Shown: positions 32,673-62,656 of the stretch, one piece after another | Numbering within the stretch: position 1 is the first letter of the stretch | How the letters are laid out: every line of letters starts with the position of its first letter | Program-made: the position numbers and the translations under genes | NCBI GenBank assembly: GCA_963665115.1 | Contig: OY762007.1 | Location: 1,856,001 to 1,920,000 of the forward strand | Length of the DNA: 64,000 nt | Origin: an uncultured Rivularia sp. | GTDB lineage: Bacteria > Cyanobacteriota > Cyanobacteriia > Cyanobacteriales > Nostocaceae | Direction of reading: 5' to 3' | Notes under the pieces: generated by a model | Told to the model about the DNA's origin: nothing | What the model saw: the letters and a program-made list of their open reading frames with translations, nothing else | Databases searched by the model: none

Positions 32673-33860
32673 CTAATTCCCAATCGGCGGTGCAAGTTCT
32701 GCACGGGGAGTTCCGCCACCACCAATACTATTCGAACTATTATTATCGACAATATATAATGCCTGAAACAGTTTCATGAAATCATCGTAAAATTTGCCGC
32801 TTCTAGTCTCGAAGTCATAGCTGTACTTTTTACGAAACTCGTCGGTAACTCCTTTTTCTACTGCAAAGTAATGTGCATCCCAGTCTGAATCTTCTACAAC
32901 ATAAGCACCGTAATTTTGCAAGGCATCAAATATCTTTTTAGCTGCTGGTGTTTGTAATTTAAGACTTTTCTTTGTGGTTTCTGGCGGAATTGCTAGCAAT
33001 GAACCCTGTACTAAAGCATGATTTTGACCACCATACCTCTTTCCTGCATAATCATCGGCATGACTTGCTGGCCAGCGATAACCACGTATTTCATCGTCGT
33101 AAAACAGATATTTTTCCGCCCAAATTACAACTTTCAAAGCGTGAGGAATCGGTTTATCGTTTGTAAGTTCGCCTTTACGAATTGAACCACCAATTGAGGA
33201 TAACCCCGAACCAAAGTGCGCTCCTCCGATTCCTTCTCCATAGATATCTACGTTTTCATATCGCCAACCGTATAGCGAACCTTCTTTTTCGCAACGAGCT
33301 AAGGGTGAAAGCTGTACTAACGTTCTACCATCTGGCATTAAGAAGGCTGAAGCGTTGTTTGGTGTATAGTGTGGTTCTTTCGTCGCGTCTGGAACAATCA
33401 AATCGTCGGGAATCGGTACGGCAATATCCATATATTTTGTACCCGTACAGCGCCCTTCACCCCAAGCACCGGGAGCGTAAACCTGACGGTACGGGTATGT
33501 ATCTTTTAGCTGAAAAAAATATTCTTTGTCTGCGGCTGCTTGCTGGGATTTACCTATACTCGCTTTAACGTAACGCGCATTGGAGCCTATGGGCATATTC
33601 CAAATTGATGTAGACAAAAAGGGCTGCAAAAACTTGTCTCTTTCGGACGTTTTACCGAAAGTCGGACAGCCCCACGCTAAAGCCATAATTATGCCAATCA
33701 AGAAAACAACCAAAATACGCAGCCAGAACGGACTTGTTAGAAATGAAAGGTTTTTCATCGAATAAAACAATCGCATCAATTTAGATTTTTTAGATAAATA
33801 GTTAAGAAATAATAAAGCATTTACTTGAATGATGGTCATTATGATAAATCCCCAATCCAA
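32673..33860 (-). CDS. Hypothetical exported protein (true start probably ~30 codons downstream)
   Basis: Long ORF, hydrophobic leader, Gly/aromatic-rich mature domain QPF.STSIWNMPIG. Confidence 0.7.
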   Translation of the reverse strand: MDWGFIIMTIIQVNALLFLNYLSKKSKLMRLFYSMKNLSFLTSPFWLRILVVFLIGIIMALAWGCPTFGKTSERDKFLQPFLSTSIWNMPIGSNARYVKASIGKSQQAAADKEYFFQLKDTYPYRQVYAPGAWGEGRCTGTKYMDIAVPIPDDLIVPDATKEPHYTPNNASAFLMPDGRTLVQLSPLARCEKEGSLYGWRYENVDIYGEGIGGAHFGSGLSSIGGSIRKGELTNDKPIPHALKVVIWAEKYLFYDDEIRGYRWPASHADDYAGKRYGGQNHALVQGSLLAIPPETTKKSLKLQTPAAKKIFDALQNYGAYVVEDSDWDAHYFAVEKGVTDEFRKKYSYDFETRSGKFYDDFMKLFQALYIVDNNSSNSIGGGGTPRAELAPPIGN

Positions 33861-45329: not shown

Positions 45330-47338
45330 TTCCAGTTACAAATGGTGACTACAAAGTAAATGTTAAGTTTGCAGAAATTTACTGGAATGAAGCAGGTAAA
45401 AGAAGTTTTGACTTATCTGCTGAAGGTCAATTAGTTATTGATGACCTTGATATCTTCGCAGAAGCAGGAGGTAAAAATCTTGCTTTAAACAAGTCTTTTG
45501 ATATTACCGTCAGCGATGGAAGCTTAAATTTAGATTTCCTGACTAATTCTGATAATGCGAAATTAGCAGCCATTGAAATTATTGGTGGTTCAGCACCAAA
45601 CCCCACAACACCACCAACTCCAACTACACCACCAAGCCCACCAACAAATCCCAACACAGGTACTATTCGCATCAATGCTGGTGGTAATGCCTACACCGAT
45701 ACAGTAGGTAATGTATGGATGAAAGACCAGTATTTTGATGCGGGCCAGACAACTTCTACTAATGCAGATATTTTCAAAACCGAAGAAGACAAACTCTATC
45801 AGACAGAACGCTGGGCTAAAAATTTAGGATATGACATACCTGTGAACGATGGTAACTACAGGGTTAATTTGCATTTCGCAGAAACTTATTTCGATGACTT
45901 CAACAAACGTATATTCGATGTATCTGTGGAAGGAGAAAGAGTCGTTGATGACTTAGATATCTTTGCTAAATCTAAGAATGCTTTTTTCCCAGGGAAAGAT
46001 TCTGCTTATGTCTACTCCGTTGATGATGTAAACGTTAGCGATGGTTTTTTAAATCTAGACTTTGATGCTAGCGTAGATAATGCCAAAATTTCTGCAATTG
46101 AAATTGTTTCCCTGACTGGTCCTCAAGTTATTTTCAAACAAACAGATGGTAATACCTCTGTGGTTGAAGGTGAAGCTACAGGAGATAGTTATTCAATTAT
46201 TTTAAACAGTCAACCAGCTAGTGATGTGACTGTTTACTTAAATCCCAACAGCCAAATTAATACAAGCAATAATAGTGTTACCTTTACTCCAGATAATTGG
46301 AATGTAGCTCAACAGATAACGGTTAATGCTTTAGATAATAATCTTGCAGATGGCAACCAAACTGTAGATATTACACACACCATTAGTAGCTCAGATGCAG
46401 ATTATGAGAGTCTGAGCTTGCCTAATATCTCTGTTTATATAAGTGATAACGATACCGTTGCAATCGACTTTACTAAAAAGACAGTTGCAGCTATGTCTAA
46501 ACCAACAGCAGCAGCTTGGGGTCCCGACCATAGACTTTATGTTGGCTCCTATTCGGGTGAAATCAAAGCATATACTTTTGATGATAATTACAATGTCATC
46601 GAGACTCAAACCATAACCACCATGAAAGGCTTATCTAATAAAAATATATTAGGTATAGCTTTCAACCCATACGATACTTCTGATTCTCCTACGATCTATG
46701 TATCTCATAACAAACTTTATGCTAATGGTGGTTCATTTTTTCCAGAAACCGAATTATCTCCCTACAGCGGACAGATATCAACCTTAGAAGGTCCAGATTT
46801 CTCTACCGTTACAGCATTAATAACCGGATTACCAGTTTCCAATCACGACCACGGTGTCAATAGTATGACCTTTGACAACGAAGGTAATCTATATGTTGCG
46901 GTTGGTGGAAATACAAATGCGGGTATATCAGCAGCTAAAATTGGTGGAATTCCTGAATCTCCCTTTGCTGCGGCAATTTTGAAGGCAGAAATTACAAAAT
47001 CAGATTTTAATGGTGAGATCAAATATAAATTACCTACTGATTTTGTACCACCTCAAGGATTAACATTCGACCCCGCAGAAAGTCAGGTATTCGGGGATAT
47101 AGCCAAGGTAGTGGATGGAGTTGATGTATCTGTATATGCTAGCGGTACACGCAATCCTTTTGATTTAGTTTGGACTACAGAAAACTTACTGTATGCAACA
47201 GACAATGGCCCGAATGGTGGATTTGGGGATGTCTCGACTTCCGCTACAACTCAAAAGCCAGTTAAAAACGCGCCAGACGAATTGAATTTAACTTTCACTT
47301 GTAAGAAGTCTCATACTTACCCGCAAGGGAAGTGTTGA
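45296..47338 (+). pseudogene. Malectin-domain / Calx-beta-like / PQQ-type sugar dehydrogenase beta-propeller protein, truncated at both ends
   Basis: Frame open from 45296 (TERWTNNLSY...VKFAEIYW), Pro/Thr linker, second malectin domain, propeller (NHDH, GTRNPFD, TDNGPN, PDELN) then runs into an IS-derived end. Confidence 0.8.
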
Positions 47339-47539
47339 GATGAATTACAATCCGAGCTTATGGTATTATGGCTTCGGTAGGTGTAGTCCAATTAAATGCA
47401 GAAATGCAGCCTACAAATAAAAGAAACAATTTGATAAAAAGTCCGTGGGGCGCACGGCTTCAAAGCTCGGTCAATGTTCTCATAGAGGAGTCGCCGAGAA
47501 GGCTACATCATAATCTGAGATTTGATGTAGGTGCGTCAC
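47299..47539 (+). mobile_element. Non-autonomous IS200/IS605 miniature element with left end, omegaRNA scaffold and right end, no intact ORF
   Basis: Both ends homologous to the ends of the tnpB element at 61042-62524; preceded by TCAC, ends in TCAC. Confidence 0.85.
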
Positions 47540-47559
47540 AAAATATCAGTTTATCTAAC
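47440..47559 (+). ncRNA. Putative stand-alone omegaRNA (TnpB guide RNA) with guide AAAATATCAGTTTATCTAAC
   Basis: Scaffold colinear with the tnpB right end, with compensatory substitutions; expression not shown; 5' end uncertain. Confidence 0.55.
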
Positions 47560-47617: not shown

Positions 47618-48391
47618 ATGCAGGTATTTCGTTTACCAGTTCTTTCAGATAATTACATATTTCTGCTATACGACAATAAACAAAATATAGCTGCTGTAGT
47701 CGATCCAGCCCAAGCAAAACCTGTTTTAGATAAACTCCAGGAACTCAAAGCGGAATTAGTCGCAATCTTCAATACCCACCATCATTCCGATCATGTAGGT
47801 GGCAATCAAAAATTAATTGAAAAATTTCCACAATTGACAGTTTATGGTGGAAGCTCCGATAAAGGCAGAATTCCCGGACAACAAGTTTTTCTCGAAGATG
47901 GCGATCGCGTTTCTTTTTCCAATCGCACTGCTGATGTTTTGTTCGTTCCCGGACATACTCGCGCTCACATAGCTTATTATTTTCCTCCCGAAAATTCCGA
48001 AGAGACGGGTGAGCTATTCTGTGGAGATACTTTATTTGCTGGTGGCTGCGGTCGCTTGTTTGAAGGAACACCAGCACAGATGGTAAATTCCCTGAGTAAA
48101 ATCCGCGCTTTGCCCGACAATACGCGGGTTTGGTGCGCCCACGAATATACTTTAAATAATTTAAAATTCGCCGTCACGGTGGATGGTAAAAACCCTAAAC
48201 TTCAAAAGCGATTTGAGGAAGTTAAGGCACATCGCAGTCGGAATGAAGCTACCGTTCCATCGTTGTTAGGAGTAGAAAAACACACGAATCCATTTCTCAG
48301 ATGGGAAGACACTGCTTTACAGTCGGCTGCAAATAGTAGCGATTCGGTGCAAACTTTTGCGCGGATACGGGGGATGAAAGATACATTTTGA
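47618..48391 (+). CDS. gloB: Hydroxyacylglutathione hydrolase (glyoxalase II)
   Basis: THHHSDHVGG, PGHT, GDTLFAGGCGRLFEG, HEYT, NPFLR. Confidence 0.95.
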   Translation: MQVFRLPVLSDNYIFLLYDNKQNIAAVVDPAQAKPVLDKLQELKAELVAIFNTHHHSDHVGGNQKLIEKFPQLTVYGGSSDKGRIPGQQVFLEDGDRVSFSNRTADVLFVPGHTRAHIAYYFPPENSEETGELFCGDTLFAGGCGRLFEGTPAQMVNSLSKIRALPDNTRVWCAHEYTLNNLKFAVTVDGKNPKLQKRFEEVKAHRSRNEATVPSLLGVEKHTNPFLRWEDTALQSAANSSDSVQTFARIRGMKDTF

Positions 48392-59465: not shown

Positions 59466-60800
59466 ATGCTATCTCTATCTACTATTTTTATTCCTCACGG
59501 ACACTGTTATCTATGGAAAACTGGATTGGTTTCGCTGCATCTAATCTCAGATTCTTTGATTACGGTGGCTTATTTTTTAATTCCTATCATGCTTGTCTAT
59601 ATTGTCCATAACCGAGATGATGTTCCTTTTGATTGGATATTTCTTTGTTTTGGTGCTTTTATTATTTTGTGTGGGTTTACCCATTTAGCGGAGGTTTGGA
59701 CGTTATGGCATCCGAATTATTGGGTTTCTGGTTGGTTAAAAGCTTCGACTGCGGCAATATCTTTAGGTACGGCAGTTTTGCTTTTTTGGTTAACTCCAAA
59801 GCTGCTAGCGATTCCTAATGTTCCAAAGTTGGCAGCGTTAAATATTGCTTTAGAAAAAGAAATTATTGAAAGAAAACAAATAGAAACAAAGTTAAGTTTA
59901 CAAACTCAACATTTAGAAGAAACTTTATTGGAACTCCAGCGTACTCAAGCTCAGATGATTCATACGGAGAAAATGTCTGGTTTGGGACAAATGGTAGCGG
60001 GGATAGCTCATGAAATCAATAATCCAGTTAGCTTTGTTTATAGCAATCTTGTTCCTGCAAGAGAATATGCTCAAGATTTCATCGAATTATTAGAACTTTA
60101 TCAGCAAGAATATTCTCAGCCTCTGGCAAAAATTCAAGAGAAAATAGAAGAAATCGATTTGGATTTTATGAAAGAAGATTTTATGAAATTGCTGAATTCG
60201 ATGGAGGTAGGAACCGAGCGTATTTATAAAATTATTTTATCGCTGCGTAATTTCTCTCGTTTGGATGAAGCTGATTTTAAAAAAGTAGATATTCATGATG
60301 GGATTGATAGTACTTTGATGCTTCTAAGAAATCAGTTAAAAGCAACATCAAAACGTTCTGAGATTAAAGTAATTAAAGAATATGGCGATATTCCTAATGT
60401 GGAATGCTATCCTAGTCAGCTAAATCAAGTATTTATGAATATTCTTGCTAATGCTATTGATGCTTTTGAGGAAAAATCAGATAACCAAAAAGTTAATTCT
60501 AACCAGATTGTAGTTTCTACTCAAAAAAATGATAACTTTGTCAAAATCATCATTGCTGACAATGCTTGTGGGATTCCTCATGAGATATATCCAAGAGTAT
60601 TTGACCCATTTTTTACAACGAAGCAAGTTGGAAAAGGTACGGGTTTGGGTTTATCTATCAGTTATGAAATAGTTACAGATAAACACGGAGGAAAATTATC
60701 TTTTGACTCTACTCTCATGCAAGGAACTAAATTTTTGATTGAAATTCCTGTTGCTCATAAAAATAAGTTAGTAGAGAAATTAGTAGAGAAAAAGAAATAG
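59466..60800 (+). CDS. Histidine kinase with N-terminal ethylene-receptor-type binding domain
   Basis: SDSLITVAYFLIP and FIILCGFTH; AHEINNP H-box; N, D, F, G boxes. Confidence 0.88.
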   Translation: MLSLSTIFIPHGHCYLWKTGLVSLHLISDSLITVAYFLIPIMLVYIVHNRDDVPFDWIFLCFGAFIILCGFTHLAEVWTLWHPNYWVSGWLKASTAAISLGTAVLLFWLTPKLLAIPNVPKLAALNIALEKEIIERKQIETKLSLQTQHLEETLLELQRTQAQMIHTEKMSGLGQMVAGIAHEINNPVSFVYSNLVPAREYAQDFIELLELYQQEYSQPLAKIQEKIEEIDLDFMKEDFMKLLNSMEVGTERIYKIILSLRNFSRLDEADFKKVDIHDGIDSTLMLLRNQLKATSKRSEIKVIKEYGDIPNVECYPSQLNQVFMNILANAIDAFEEKSDNQKVNSNQIVVSTQKNDNFVKIIIADNACGIPHEIYPRVFDPFFTTKQVGKGTGLGLSISYEIVTDKHGGKLSFDSTLMQGTKFLIEIPVAHKNKLVEKLVEKKK

Positions 60801-61021: not shown

Positions 61022-61150
61022 CGAAACGAACGGTATATTTGGTGACGTACTCACACCTCTCTTCGAGTAGGTGTGAGCTTCTCAGCGACTCGTCTTTGAC
61101 GACATAAACTGAGCTTTTAGGGCGTGCGTCCCACGCACCTTGATGTTCCG
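61022..61150 (-). ncRNA. omegaRNA/reRNA of the tnpB element; guide CAAATATACCGTTCGTTTCG from flanking DNA
   Basis: Structured right end overlapping the tnpB 3' end, as established for TnpB systems; 5' end uncertain. Confidence 0.7.
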
Positions 61151-62266
61151 CGCTGCGTTCAAGTCCCGGCAGATGGTGGTTTTGCACACTGGGCAATTAT
61201 GCATTCTTTGAGACAGCGGCTTTTTGACAATATGACCACAACTAGAACAAGATTGACTTGTACCGTTGGGATTCACAGCAATAACTTTCAAACCAGCATT
61301 TTCGGCTTTGTTTGTCAGTATACAAATGAATTGACCCCAACCAGCATCATTAATTGATTTAGCTAATCTTGTTTTAACAAGTCCTTTGATATTCAGCTTT
61401 TCAACTACTACGACATCGTATTTGTCTAGTAGTTTTTTAGCTGTTTTAAAGTGAAAATCTTTTCGGGTATCAGCTACCTTTTTATGTCTAATACCTAACT
61501 TTTTAATTGCTTTTTTGCGACGATTTGAGCCAATATGCCGCCGCGATACTTTACGTTGTGCTGCGGATAATTTACGTTGTGCTTTTCGTAAATGTTTTGG
61601 TGCAGCAATTCGGGTATTATCAGAAGCTACATAAAAATCAATCAGCCCAACATCAATACCTACAATATTATCAGCATTGAAATCTGGTTTAATTGTTGGG
61701 ACTTCTTTGTTATCAAGACTTAAAGTTACATAGTAACCGCTAGCTTTTTTCGTTACAGATAGGGTTTTGATAACGAAACCATCTGGGATAGGTCGGTGTA
61801 CAATTACTTTTACCTCACCAATTTTTGATAGCGTAATTTTATTACCAACTTTAGGATGCTGTTTGAATTGTTTATATGTAAATGTTTTATAACGTCCTAC
61901 ACCTTTAAATCTTGGACGACCAGAACGCTTACCGTTACTATCACCTTTGAGCCATCTATCAAAAGTTTTTTCTACTTTGTCAGATACAGCTTGAAGTACC
62001 TGGCTATGAATTTTTTTGTACCAAGGTCTATCTTTTTTTAGTTGAACTAAACTTTTTTCTTGGCTTACTTTGTTCGGTTTATTTTTTAATTCTGGAAGAT
62101 GACAAACAAGAGGGCATCTATCAATAGAACAGCGATTCTGTTCGTACCAATCAAACCGCTGTGCAAGCTGATAATTATATTGACAACGCAACATATCGAG
62201 TGTGTTATCAATAATTTCTCGTTGCTCTTTATTCGGCTTTAATCGGTATTGATAAGAAATTCTCAT
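61082..62266 (-). CDS. tnpB: RNA-guided endonuclease TnpB
   Basis: N-terminal YQYRLKP HTH; RuvC GIDVG, VVE, RDLNAARNI; zinc finger CSSC/CPVC. Confidence 0.95.
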   Translation of the reverse strand: MRISYQYRLKPNKEQREIIDNTLDMLRCQYNYQLAQRFDWYEQNRCSIDRCPLVCHLPELKNKPNKVSQEKSLVQLKKDRPWYKKIHSQVLQAVSDKVEKTFDRWLKGDSNGKRSGRPRFKGVGRYKTFTYKQFKQHPKVGNKITLSKIGEVKVIVHRPIPDGFVIKTLSVTKKASGYYVTLSLDNKEVPTIKPDFNADNIVGIDVGLIDFYVASDNTRIAAPKHLRKAQRKLSAAQRKVSRRHIGSNRRKKAIKKLGIRHKKVADTRKDFHFKTAKKLLDKYDVVVVEKLNIKGLVKTRLAKSINDAGWGQFICILTNKAENAGLKVIAVNPNGTSQSCSSCGHIVKKPLSQRMHNCPVCKTTICRDLNAARNIKVRGTHALKAQFMSSKTSR

Positions 62267-62335
62267 TAATAAATCCCTCTTGCTATCGACCTATTGATAT
62301 ATTAACATATATGTGTAGTTATTGTGTAGATTATC

Positions 62336-62512
62336 ATGAAAAACAAAGCACTAAATTTAAGAATTAGCGAAAAAAGATTAAATATTCTTAGAGCTTATGC
62401 TTTAGATAGAGATAAAACAATGACGGCAATTGTAGAAGAATGGATTGACTCGTTATCTGTTAAAACTCTGCCCGCGATTCATCTCAACACCGATTCAAAG
62501 AATTCGGTGTGA
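62336..62512 (+). CDS. Small ribbon-helix-helix (CopG/ParG-like) protein inside the IS, divergent from tnpB
   Basis: 58 aa MKNKALNLRISEKRLNILRAYALDRDKTMTAIVEEWIDSL...; below the ORF-track cutoff. Confidence 0.75.
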   Translation: MKNKALNLRISEKRLNILRAYALDRDKTMTAIVEEWIDSLSVKTLPAIHLNTDSKNSV

Positions 62513-62656
62513 GCCTTCTCGCGGTTGATGGTAAATTTCGATCGGTTCTTAGTTTGTCGCTTTAGCTTGAAATCCGAGGACTTTAGTCCTGATTACAAAC
62601 CTGCATATGGTTTTATATATGGAAATTCGGGAGGCAAATCTATCTATCGTTGCGAA

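What the first reader, a model, noticed from the sequence alone, without database searches (positions are those of the whole stretch)
47299..47559. Protein-free IS605 mini-element that preserves a covarying omegaRNA: candidate trans-acting TnpB guide
Seen: a 241-bp element whose 3' part aligns with the right end of the tnpB element at 61042-61150, with stems kept by compensatory changes: CTCGG..CCGAG vs CTCAG..CTGAG; TTCTC-ATA-GAGGA vs TCGTC-AAA-GACGA; CTACATCA..TGATGTAG vs CTCACACC..GGTGTGAG; both end in CGTCAC. The left ends also covary (TTGTAA-GAAG..GTGTTGAGATGAA-TTACAA vs CCGCGA-GAAG..GTGTTGAGATGAA-TCGCGG). Almost all of tnpB is gone; only a decayed NAA-like tail remains. Known: TnpB uses a right-end RNA plus the next flanking nucleotides as guide. 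Inference: this locus could supply a guide (AAAATATCAGTTTATCTAAC, from the gloB upstream region) in trans, or be a parasite using TnpA/TnpB from elsewhere. It is a related, not identical, family member, so the covariation may predate loss of tnpB and its partner TnpB may lie outside the window.
Basis: partly seen in the sequence, partly recalled or inferred. Interest (0 to 1): 0.72.

Follow-up and report, generated by a model that had tools for sequence, protein, structure and literature searches.

The report
Gene-less guide-RNA mini-transposon with leader hairpin
This 248-base stretch is one of ten copies of a protein-free jumping element, found across filamentous cyanobacteria, that carries a promoter-like box, a conserved extra hairpin and the guide-RNA fold of a TnpB nuclease; it likely borrows enzymes from full-length relatives to defend its own insertion site, a known way of life in which only the extra hairpin looks undescribed.

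Summary
It spans 47292-47539 (248 bp), follows TTTAA, and is one of 10 ORF-less copies in this cyanobacterial genome; relatives in several genera carry it, one with 8 near-identical copies. Fixed layout: IS605 left end, extended -10 box, a 38-nt covarying leader hairpin absent from tnpB elements, an A-rich linker, then a full TnpB omegaRNA scaffold. A stem variant seen only in leader-bearing copies (23 of 23 hits, none behind tnpB) keeps stem and pseudoknot paired, so selection on the RNA likely continued after tnpB loss. The TAM is probably TTTAA, not TCAC, and the best partner TnpB lies outside the window. No copy's guide hits a TAM-flanked site elsewhere in the genome; this guide matches only the empty site in relatives, pointing to selfish homing rather than defence. 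The neighbouring gene has lost 225 codons, likely by a 677-bp left-end-adjacent deletion. Transcription and TnpB loading are untested. omegaRNA-carrying PATEs are in print, and this scan has noted similar elements, often with extra 5' modules, on other DNA (26 findings).

The parts
47287..47291 (+). Target motif TTTAA just outside the left end (predicted TnpA cleavage site and TnpB TAM)
   Evidence: TTTAA precedes 7 of 10 copies and 2 of 4 related tnpB elements
47292..47539 (+). Whole ORF-less mini-element (PATE), 248 bp
   Evidence: Boundaries from alignment of 9 genome copies and from two near-identical tnpB elements with different flanks; absent at this place in 19 relatives' loci
47292..47350 (+). 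IS605 left end: outer stem TTGTAA/TTACAA, GAAG, subterminal hairpin 47309-47340
   Evidence: Sequence; same layout in tnpB elements
47361..47369 (+). Extended -10-like box TG-G-TATTAT, ending 7 nt before the leader (predicted promoter; no canonical -35)
   Evidence: TAnnnT ends 5-9 nt before the leader in 30 of 38 family members, TG before it in 27 of 30; windows 15 nt or more upstream 0-3 of 38. Not listed by the -35/-10 scan
47377..47414 (+). 5' leader hairpin: GUAGGU/GCCUAC stem, 14-nt unpaired strand, inner UGCA-GAAA-UGCA hairpin; absent from tnpB elements
   Evidence: 94.9% of cells paired, 4 of 10 pairs with two-sided changes in 30 sequences; in G000 found only in mini-elements; no Rfam family
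47415..47438 (+). A-rich linker, variable in length and sequence (predicted trimming region)
   Evidence: Mean pairwise identity 49%
47439..47460 (+). Scaffold stem 1; its loop GGCG (47449-47452) pairs with CGTC (47534-47537) as a pseudoknot
   Evidence: Pair 117-217 of A1: GC 20, AU 8, GU 4, other 1 of 33
47466..47498 (+). Scaffold stems 2 and 3 (CTCGG/CCGAG; TTCTC/GAGGA)
   Evidence: 99.4% and 97.6% paired; pair 151-160 shows four pair types
47498..47539 (+). Right end: GAAG, terminal hairpin 47502-47531, final TCAC
47540..47559 (+). Flank that would serve as guide; equals the empty-site sequence of relatives
   Evidence: TTAA plus this flank occurs in 3 of 26 same-genus genomes, at the orthologous empty site, and not in G000
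45719..47338 (+). Malectin + glucose/sorbosone-dehydrogenase-like gene, cut at the left end; about 225 codons missing
   Evidence: Pfam PF11721, PF07995; relatives' gene ends 677 nt beyond the junction at a TTTAA in 8 of 13 loci; one contig of run X5 has 672 letters plus a second TTTAA before the element
47618..48391 (+). gloB (hydroxyacylglutathione hydrolase), downstream neighbour, same strand
   Evidence: TIGR03413 above cut-off
61042..62530 (-). Related IS1341-type element (1489 bp, after TTTAC) with tnpB at 61082-62266; related but probably not the closest partner
   Evidence: NF040570 above cut-off; RuvC motifs GIDVG, VVEKL, RDLNA intact (by eye)

Best explanation
It is a protein-free IS605-family transposon (PATE) that likely transcribes a standalone TnpB guide RNA from its own promoter and likely uses TnpA and TnpB made by full-length relatives to move and to defend its own site. 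Shown: the ends, the copy number and differing flanks, the TTTAA target motif, the conserved -10-like box, the covarying leader, scaffold and pseudoknot, and intact cognate tnpA/tnpB genes in the genome. Inferred: TnpA from the autonomous element (genome about 759.1-760.9 kb) excises and inserts it after TTTAA; the RNA starts at the leader and runs through TCAC into about 16-20 flank bases; a TTTAA-type TnpB (best candidate at genome 8468206-8469384) loads it, probably trimming in the A-rich linker; the complex cuts the empty allele (TTTAA + flank) left after excision or on a sister chromosome, and repair from the filled copy restores the element. The leader most likely protects or presents the short precursor, which lacks the long tnpB mRNA that normally precedes the scaffold; its conserved unpaired strand hints at a binding partner. 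The same left end was likely re-joined to an upstream TTTAA, deleting 677 bp of the neighbouring gene.
For: 10 ORF-less copies in G000, 62-89% identical over the RNA region among the 7 compared, each with its own flank. 8 near-identical copies with 8 different right flanks in one Dolichospermum genome show recent movement without own proteins. -10-like box at fixed spacing in 30 of 38 while upstream spacers differ widely. Stems 1-3 and the pseudoknot lie beyond the hairpin, guide and cleavage site that IS608 TnpA is described to use (PMC3201880, passages) yet covary (14 of 39 pairs, 0 of 500 shuffles); the pseudoknot is a core feature of TnpB omegaRNA (PMC10097598, passages). The CCCTA/TAGGG stem-1 variant, which would put a stop in the tnpB frame, is in 21 of 65 leader-bearing copies and 0 of 9 tnpB copies; all 23 family-wide hits carry the leader (21 by pattern, 2 by eye), none tnpB, with pseudoknot pairing kept (20 A:T, 3 G:C); a tnpB-context pattern found it in 0 of 201 genomes against 25 of 201 for the usual stem. 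Cognate tnpA (NF033573) and 4 TnpBs with intact RuvC motifs are in the genome. The guide matches only the orthologous empty site. Homing by TnpB and omegaRNA-bearing PATEs are described in 10.1101/2023.03.14.532601 (passages); 5' trimming by TnpB in PMC10278001 (passages).
Against: No transcript start, abundance or TnpB loading was shown; no canonical -35 was found. This copy's scaffold is only 70-75% identical to the nearest tnpB right ends (47% to the autonomous element, which has an insert), so compatibility is assumed. Family members are kin and 10 of the 33 aligned sequences were found by the leader pattern, which inflates leader identity and covariation counts. Some old, fixed copies show broken pairs (pseudoknot loop in G003/G007, stem 3 in G005), so not every copy works. 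The 677-bp deletion rests on one contig whose intervening letters were not read; a 5-bp microhomology deletion would look the same.
Confidence: 0.72

Rival explanations
1. The RNA binds TnpB but acts as a decoy or regulator (sponge for TnpB, or a leader-borne regulatory RNA) rather than guiding homing.
For: The leader's unpaired strand is conserved in sequence well beyond what a protective hairpin needs; ten copies with own promoters could outnumber four tnpB genes.
Against: No antisense partner found: duplexes of the leader with cognate tnpA/tnpB mRNAs are no better than with random genome pieces (10-89% of random pieces as good). The family still transposes, which homing explains directly.
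Confidence: 0.12
2. A host-domesticated guide library aimed at invaders or host genes, or a promoter donor for downstream genes.
For: Some copies are fixed at orthologous sites across species, e.g. before atpB in 4 genomes and before psbB in 2, in sense orientation (genes named from their N-terminal sequence, recalled).
Against: None of 10 guides has a TAM-flanked 12-nt match elsewhere in G000; no TTTAA+guide match in viral contigs; the element is not in the phage or plasmid sets; this copy is missing at the orthologous site in 19 relatives' loci; fixed copies show broken pairs; downstream ORFs are sense in 6 and antisense in 4 of 10.
Confidence: 0.06
3. A PATE moved by TnpA alone, whose internal structure is inherited or repeatedly recaptured from tnpB elements and has no current RNA role.
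For: Both pseudoknot states also occur in tnpB elements (5 G:C, 4 A:T); the leader's TTAAATGCAGCC resembles tnpB's L-N-A-A codons, so it may have grown from that tail.
Against: The leader and the CCCTA stem occur only without tnpB yet covary; G-U-type one-sided changes and a positioned -10 box point to RNA.
Confidence: 0.08
4. A single decaying remnant of a tnpB element.
For: None beyond first appearance.
Against: Multi-copy, multi-genus family with fixed layout and recent expansions.
Confidence: 0.02

Closest known systems
PATEs of IS200/IS605 (Haloquadratum, PMC3119063, passages) and omegaRNA-encoding PATE-like elements of Geobacillus stearothermophilus (10.1101/2023.03.14.532601, passages)
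   Same: No terminal inverted repeats, subterminal palindromes, no target duplication, no ORF, ends shared with tnpB elements; the preprint states that PATEs often encode omegaRNAs that TnpB from other elements would act on in trans.
   Different: Not a plain core deletion: a positioned -10 box and a covarying 38-nt leader that tnpB elements lack, plus a scaffold variant that evolved only without tnpB. The passages read describe no such leader.
Standalone omegaRNAs of OMEGA systems (summarised in PMC10691335, passages; the original 2021 paper was not held)
   Same: Mobilised, effector-less omegaRNA loci in genomes that hold a compatible effector; reported to work in trans.
   Different: Function here is untested; this is a TnpB-type right-end RNA in cyanobacteria with an added 5' module; the quoted review calls their role unknown.
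ISDra2 and AmaTnpB omegaRNA (PMC10097598, PMC10278001, passages)
   Same: Roughly 100-nt scaffold ending at the right end, with a 5' stem whose loop forms a pseudoknot with the last bases; guide from the flank.
   Different: Those are cut from the tnpB mRNA; here the precursor is predicted to be a 163-nt stand-alone RNA with own promoter. TAM predicted TTTAA, against TTGAT and TCAC.
TldR (nuclease-dead TnpB repressors; PMC13565253, passage)
   Same: Guide RNA lying near a host promoter region (gloB upstream).
   Different: Cognate TnpBs keep all three RuvC motifs, and the filled site has no TAM, so self-targeting of the gloB promoter is not expected.

Membership tests
PATE (IS200/IS605 non-autonomous derivative) | Too short to encode a transposase; no conserved ORF | tested here: met
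   248 bp; the one open frame through the element is broken in other copies and the linker varies by non-multiples of 3
PATE (IS200/IS605 non-autonomous derivative) | Near-terminal palindromes, no terminal inverted repeats, no target duplication | tested here: met
   Hairpins 47309-47340 and 47502-47531; ends and flanks of 10 copies read by eye
PATE (IS200/IS605 non-autonomous derivative) | Ends related to IS605 elements and insertion 3' of a fixed 4-6 nt motif | tested here: met
   Left/right ends 54-66%/47-75% identical to four tnpB elements; TTTAA before 7 of 10 copies
PATE (IS200/IS605 non-autonomous derivative) | Mobilisation by TnpA in trans | not testable with these tools
   Indirect only: cognate tnpA present; near-identical copies with different flanks
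Standalone TnpB omegaRNA | Scaffold homologous to a TnpB right end with conserved stems and pseudoknot | tested here: met
Standalone TnpB omegaRNA | Compatible, catalytically intact TnpB in the same genome | tested here: met
   Four related TnpBs with GIDVG, VEKL/VENL and RDLN/RDWN motifs; compatibility itself not shown
Standalone TnpB omegaRNA | Transcribed as a discrete RNA | tested here: inconclusive
   Positioned -10 box; the only RNA run holds one contig of a relative's copy, which cannot show start or strand
Standalone TnpB omegaRNA | Loaded by TnpB and guides TAM-dependent cleavage | not testable with these tools
   Needs bench work
TldR | Nuclease-dead TnpB with a guide matching a TAM-flanked host promoter | tested here: not met
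   RuvC motifs intact; no TAM-flanked guide match in G000
Catalogued RNA family (Rfam 15) | Match at gathering score | tested here: not met
   Only rRNA and tRNA in the window; best local hit E 1.9

The most novel reading that the evidence does not exclude
The leader is a dedicated loading module that lets a protein-free RNA gene win TnpB away from its own mRNA. These elements would then be guide-only gene drives of polyploid cyanobacteria: each copy is a self-promoted sgRNA gene that captures a new guide at every jump, homes with borrowed nuclease, and nibbles neighbouring host genes by left-end-adjacent deletion. The leader would be a portable part for expressing or loading TnpB guides in trans.
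Probability: 0.2. Interest if true: 0.72.

Novelty: new variant of a known kind. Interest (0 to 1): 0.42.

Why it matters
It offers a natural, multi-copy test of an open question, what standalone omegaRNAs do, with sequence evidence that selection on the RNA continued after the protein was lost. It names the likely TAM (TTTAA), partner TnpB and target (the empty allele), so the test is direct. The leader hairpin is in no Rfam family and in no paper found here; if it aids stability or loading it bears on guide design for compact TnpB editors. The polymorphic 677-bp deletion suggests that such 250-bp elements can truncate host genes without inserting into them.

Tried and rejected
1) Leader antisense to tnpA or tnpB mRNA: its reverse complement reads His-Leu-Ile/Val codons like the TnpA N-terminal strand, but other copies in G025 break the pattern and duplex energies do not beat random genome pieces. 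Rejected. 2) A small ORF through the element: broken in other copies. Rejected. 3) TCAC as TAM: it is the element's own end. Rejected. 4) Guides against the genome: 0 of 10 mini guides have a 12-nt exact match behind an N-TTA-(A/C/G) motif; 0 matches for TTTAA plus 16 guide bases in viral contigs; element not found in 72,556 plasmids or 50,697 phages (near relatives may be left out there). 5) Rfam: nothing. 6) Promoter scan needing a -35: did not list the box. 7) Expression: one RNA run (X1, share 0.04) gave one 239-nt contig of a relative's copy covering 47377-47532 plus 53 and 30 outside letters; it cannot show start, strand or transcription. Not counted as evidence. 8) First leader structure (TGTA paired with TGCA) replaced by the inner GAAA hairpin, which RNAalifold chose and which shows A-U to U-A changes. 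9) Literature: the leader sequence in three spellings found 0 papers; keyword searches found no description of this family. The MITE table in the supplement of PMC3542288 (Anabaena 90) was not read and may list such copies as unclassified MITEs. 10.1101/2022.10.12.511977 (passages) was uninformative.

Full report
Setting. The finding sits between a malectin/dehydrogenase-like ORF (45719-47338) and gloB (47618-48391).

Observation. The right ends of the mini-element and of the tnpB element align at 72.5% over 109 nt, and the predicted RNA folds better than all 200 shuffles (z -2.93). Two near-identical tnpB elements with different flanks fix the left boundary at a C after a 5-nt motif; by the same rule the mini-element spans 47292-47539, 248 bp, after TTTAA.

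It is a family. BLAST, a profile HMM and a covariance model find 10 ORF-less copies in G000 and four related tnpB elements, one with a divergent tnpA. Seven copies compared are 62-89% identical over the RNA region and all ten have different flanks. TTTAA precedes 7 of 10; the others have GTTAA, CTTAC and TTTAG. The element's DNA hits 22 of 24 same-genus genomes (some hits are tnpB element ends). An exact 25-nt leader pattern gave 53 loci in named records of Rivularia, Calothrix, Nostoc, Richelia, Dolichospermum, Cuspidothrix, Symploca and Coleofasciculaceae; in all 30 of these that I printed, the leader is followed by the scaffold, and one Dolichospermum genome has 8 near-identical copies with 8 different right flanks. 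The model rang in 26 of 151 genomes of the phylum, tnpB ends included; a distant lineage in G025 has the same layout with another leader loop.

Anatomy. Left end; spacer that varies widely; a TAnnnT box ending 5-9 nt before the leader in 30 of 38 members, preceded by TG in 27 of 30, against 0-3 of 38 in windows 15 nt or more upstream (20 of 38 in the 10-14 window, which overlaps the same motif). A scan that needs a -35 did not list it. Then a 38-nt leader: a 6-bp stem, a 14-nt unpaired strand and an inner GAAA hairpin, 94.9% paired with two-sided changes at 4 of 10 pairs in 30 sequences. In G000 close matches to the leader occur only in mini-elements. Mean identity in 33 aligned copies is 89% for the leader, 49% for the linker, 78% and 83% for the scaffold stems and 55% for the terminal hairpin; 10 of the 33 were found by the leader pattern, so the first figure is inflated. 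The scaffold has 14 of 39 pairs with two-sided changes, 0 of 500 shuffles as high, and a pseudoknot pair that is GC in 20, AU in 8, GU in 4 and unpaired in 1. Kin share changes, so these counts are not probabilities. Rfam has nothing for it.

Did selection outlast tnpB? A stem-1 variant, CCCTA/TAGGG, changes both sides of two pairs and would place a stop in the tnpB frame. It is in 21 of 65 leader-bearing copies and 0 of 9 tnpB copies. Across 201 genomes of the family it was found 23 times in 14 genomes, always behind the leader (21 by pattern, 2 by eye) and never behind tnpB, with the pseudoknot kept as A:T in 20 and G:C in 3. A pattern for this stem in tnpB context found 0 of 201 genomes; the control with the usual stem found 25 of 201. 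IS608 TnpA is described to need the subterminal hairpin, a 4-nt guide and the cleavage site (PMC3201880, passages), whereas the pseudoknot is a core part of TnpB omegaRNA (PMC10097598, passages). The simplest reading is that the RNA is used.

Partner and target. Four cognate TnpBs keep their three RuvC motifs. The element at genome 8468160 follows TTTAA and has the closest ends (66% left, 75% right); the window's element follows TTTAC (54%, 70%). The TAM is therefore likely TTTAA; that TAM equals the insertion motif is taken from the Geobacillus work (10.1101/2023.03.14.532601, passages), not tested. None of the ten guides has a TAM-flanked 12-nt match elsewhere in G000, and this one has none in viral contigs. 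TTAA plus this guide exists in 3 of 26 same-genus genomes, at the orthologous site where the element is absent. The natural target is thus the empty allele, as in the homing model. Old copies fixed across species show some broken pairs, which fits a selfish element that decays once immobile better than a domesticated one.

An adjacent deletion. In relatives the upstream gene runs on for about 225 codons and ends at a TTTAA exactly 677 nt after the junction in 8 of 13 loci (674, 680 or 764 nt in the rest); that stretch is not elsewhere in G000. One contig of run X5, same organism code, maps in two pieces, 47150-47291 and 47287-47406, with 672 letters between: 672 plus the repeated TTTAA is 677. 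X5 also holds a smaller share of the sampled words (0.88 against 0.96-0.98). The likely history is insertion at the stop-codon TTTAA, then re-joining of the left end to an internal TTTAA. Y1 chemistry allows it (left end held as 5'-phosphotyrosine, attacked by a target 3'-OH, my inference); a microhomology deletion is the alternative. The letters between were not read.

What is known. PATEs are defined in PMC3119063 (passages). The Geobacillus preprint says PATEs often encode omegaRNAs that TnpB from other elements would act on; PMC10691335 (passages) says standalone omegaRNAs were shown to work in trans and that their role is unknown; TnpB trims the 5' side of its RNA (PMC10278001, passages). 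I found no paper on this family or leader (subscription papers and the MITE supplement of PMC3542288 not seen). This scan has reported similar gene-less elements, many with extra 5' modules, in at least 24 genomes; no look-alike of this sequence.

Verdict. A real, well-resolved new variant of a known kind: an omegaRNA-carrying PATE with its own promoter-like box and an uncatalogued leader, likely a homing parasite of TnpA/TnpB. Interest 0.42; higher if the leader proves to be a loading module.

Noticed in passing
window 45719-47338; run X5 record 10: The malectin/dehydrogenase gene lacks about 225 C-terminal codons; another sample of the same organism appears to keep 677 bp more, so the truncation is likely recent and polymorphic.
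   Followed up: partly
G000 6716295-6716561 (L161), L028, L031, L097; G000 914975-915227 (L158), L022: Old copies are fixed 52 nt before an atpB-like gene in four genomes and 187 nt before a psbB-like gene in two, in sense orientation; their promoters could read into essential genes (gene names recalled from N-terminal sequence).
   Followed up: partly
G000 3196196-3197685 (L164): A 99.9% identical copy of the window's tnpB element has one extra G in the pseudoknot loop, which shifts the frame of the TnpB tail (408 versus 394 aa).
   Followed up: no
G000 33664-33681: TTTAC plus 13 nt match the guide of the window's tnpB element; possibly chance, possibly an off-target site.
   Followed up: no
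G000 3299461, 6780374, about 829821; L074, L083-L086: Many mini-elements carry a small GC-rich palindromic repeat nested at one spot in stem 2, reminiscent of the repeats that target Haloquadratum PATEs (PMC3119063).
   Followed up: no
L071, L072, L076, L078, L121, L211; L195-L201: The same promoter-leader module is joined to at least two other right-end subtypes, suggesting it is old or swapped between TnpB subfamilies.
   Followed up: partly
L023, L065, L081-L084, L091, L136, L147: Several copies keep promoter box, leader and scaffold but show no left end close by: immobile or longer versions.
   Followed up: no
window 59466-60800: Histidine kinase with an ethylene-receptor-like N-terminal domain (PF25487).
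   Followed up: no
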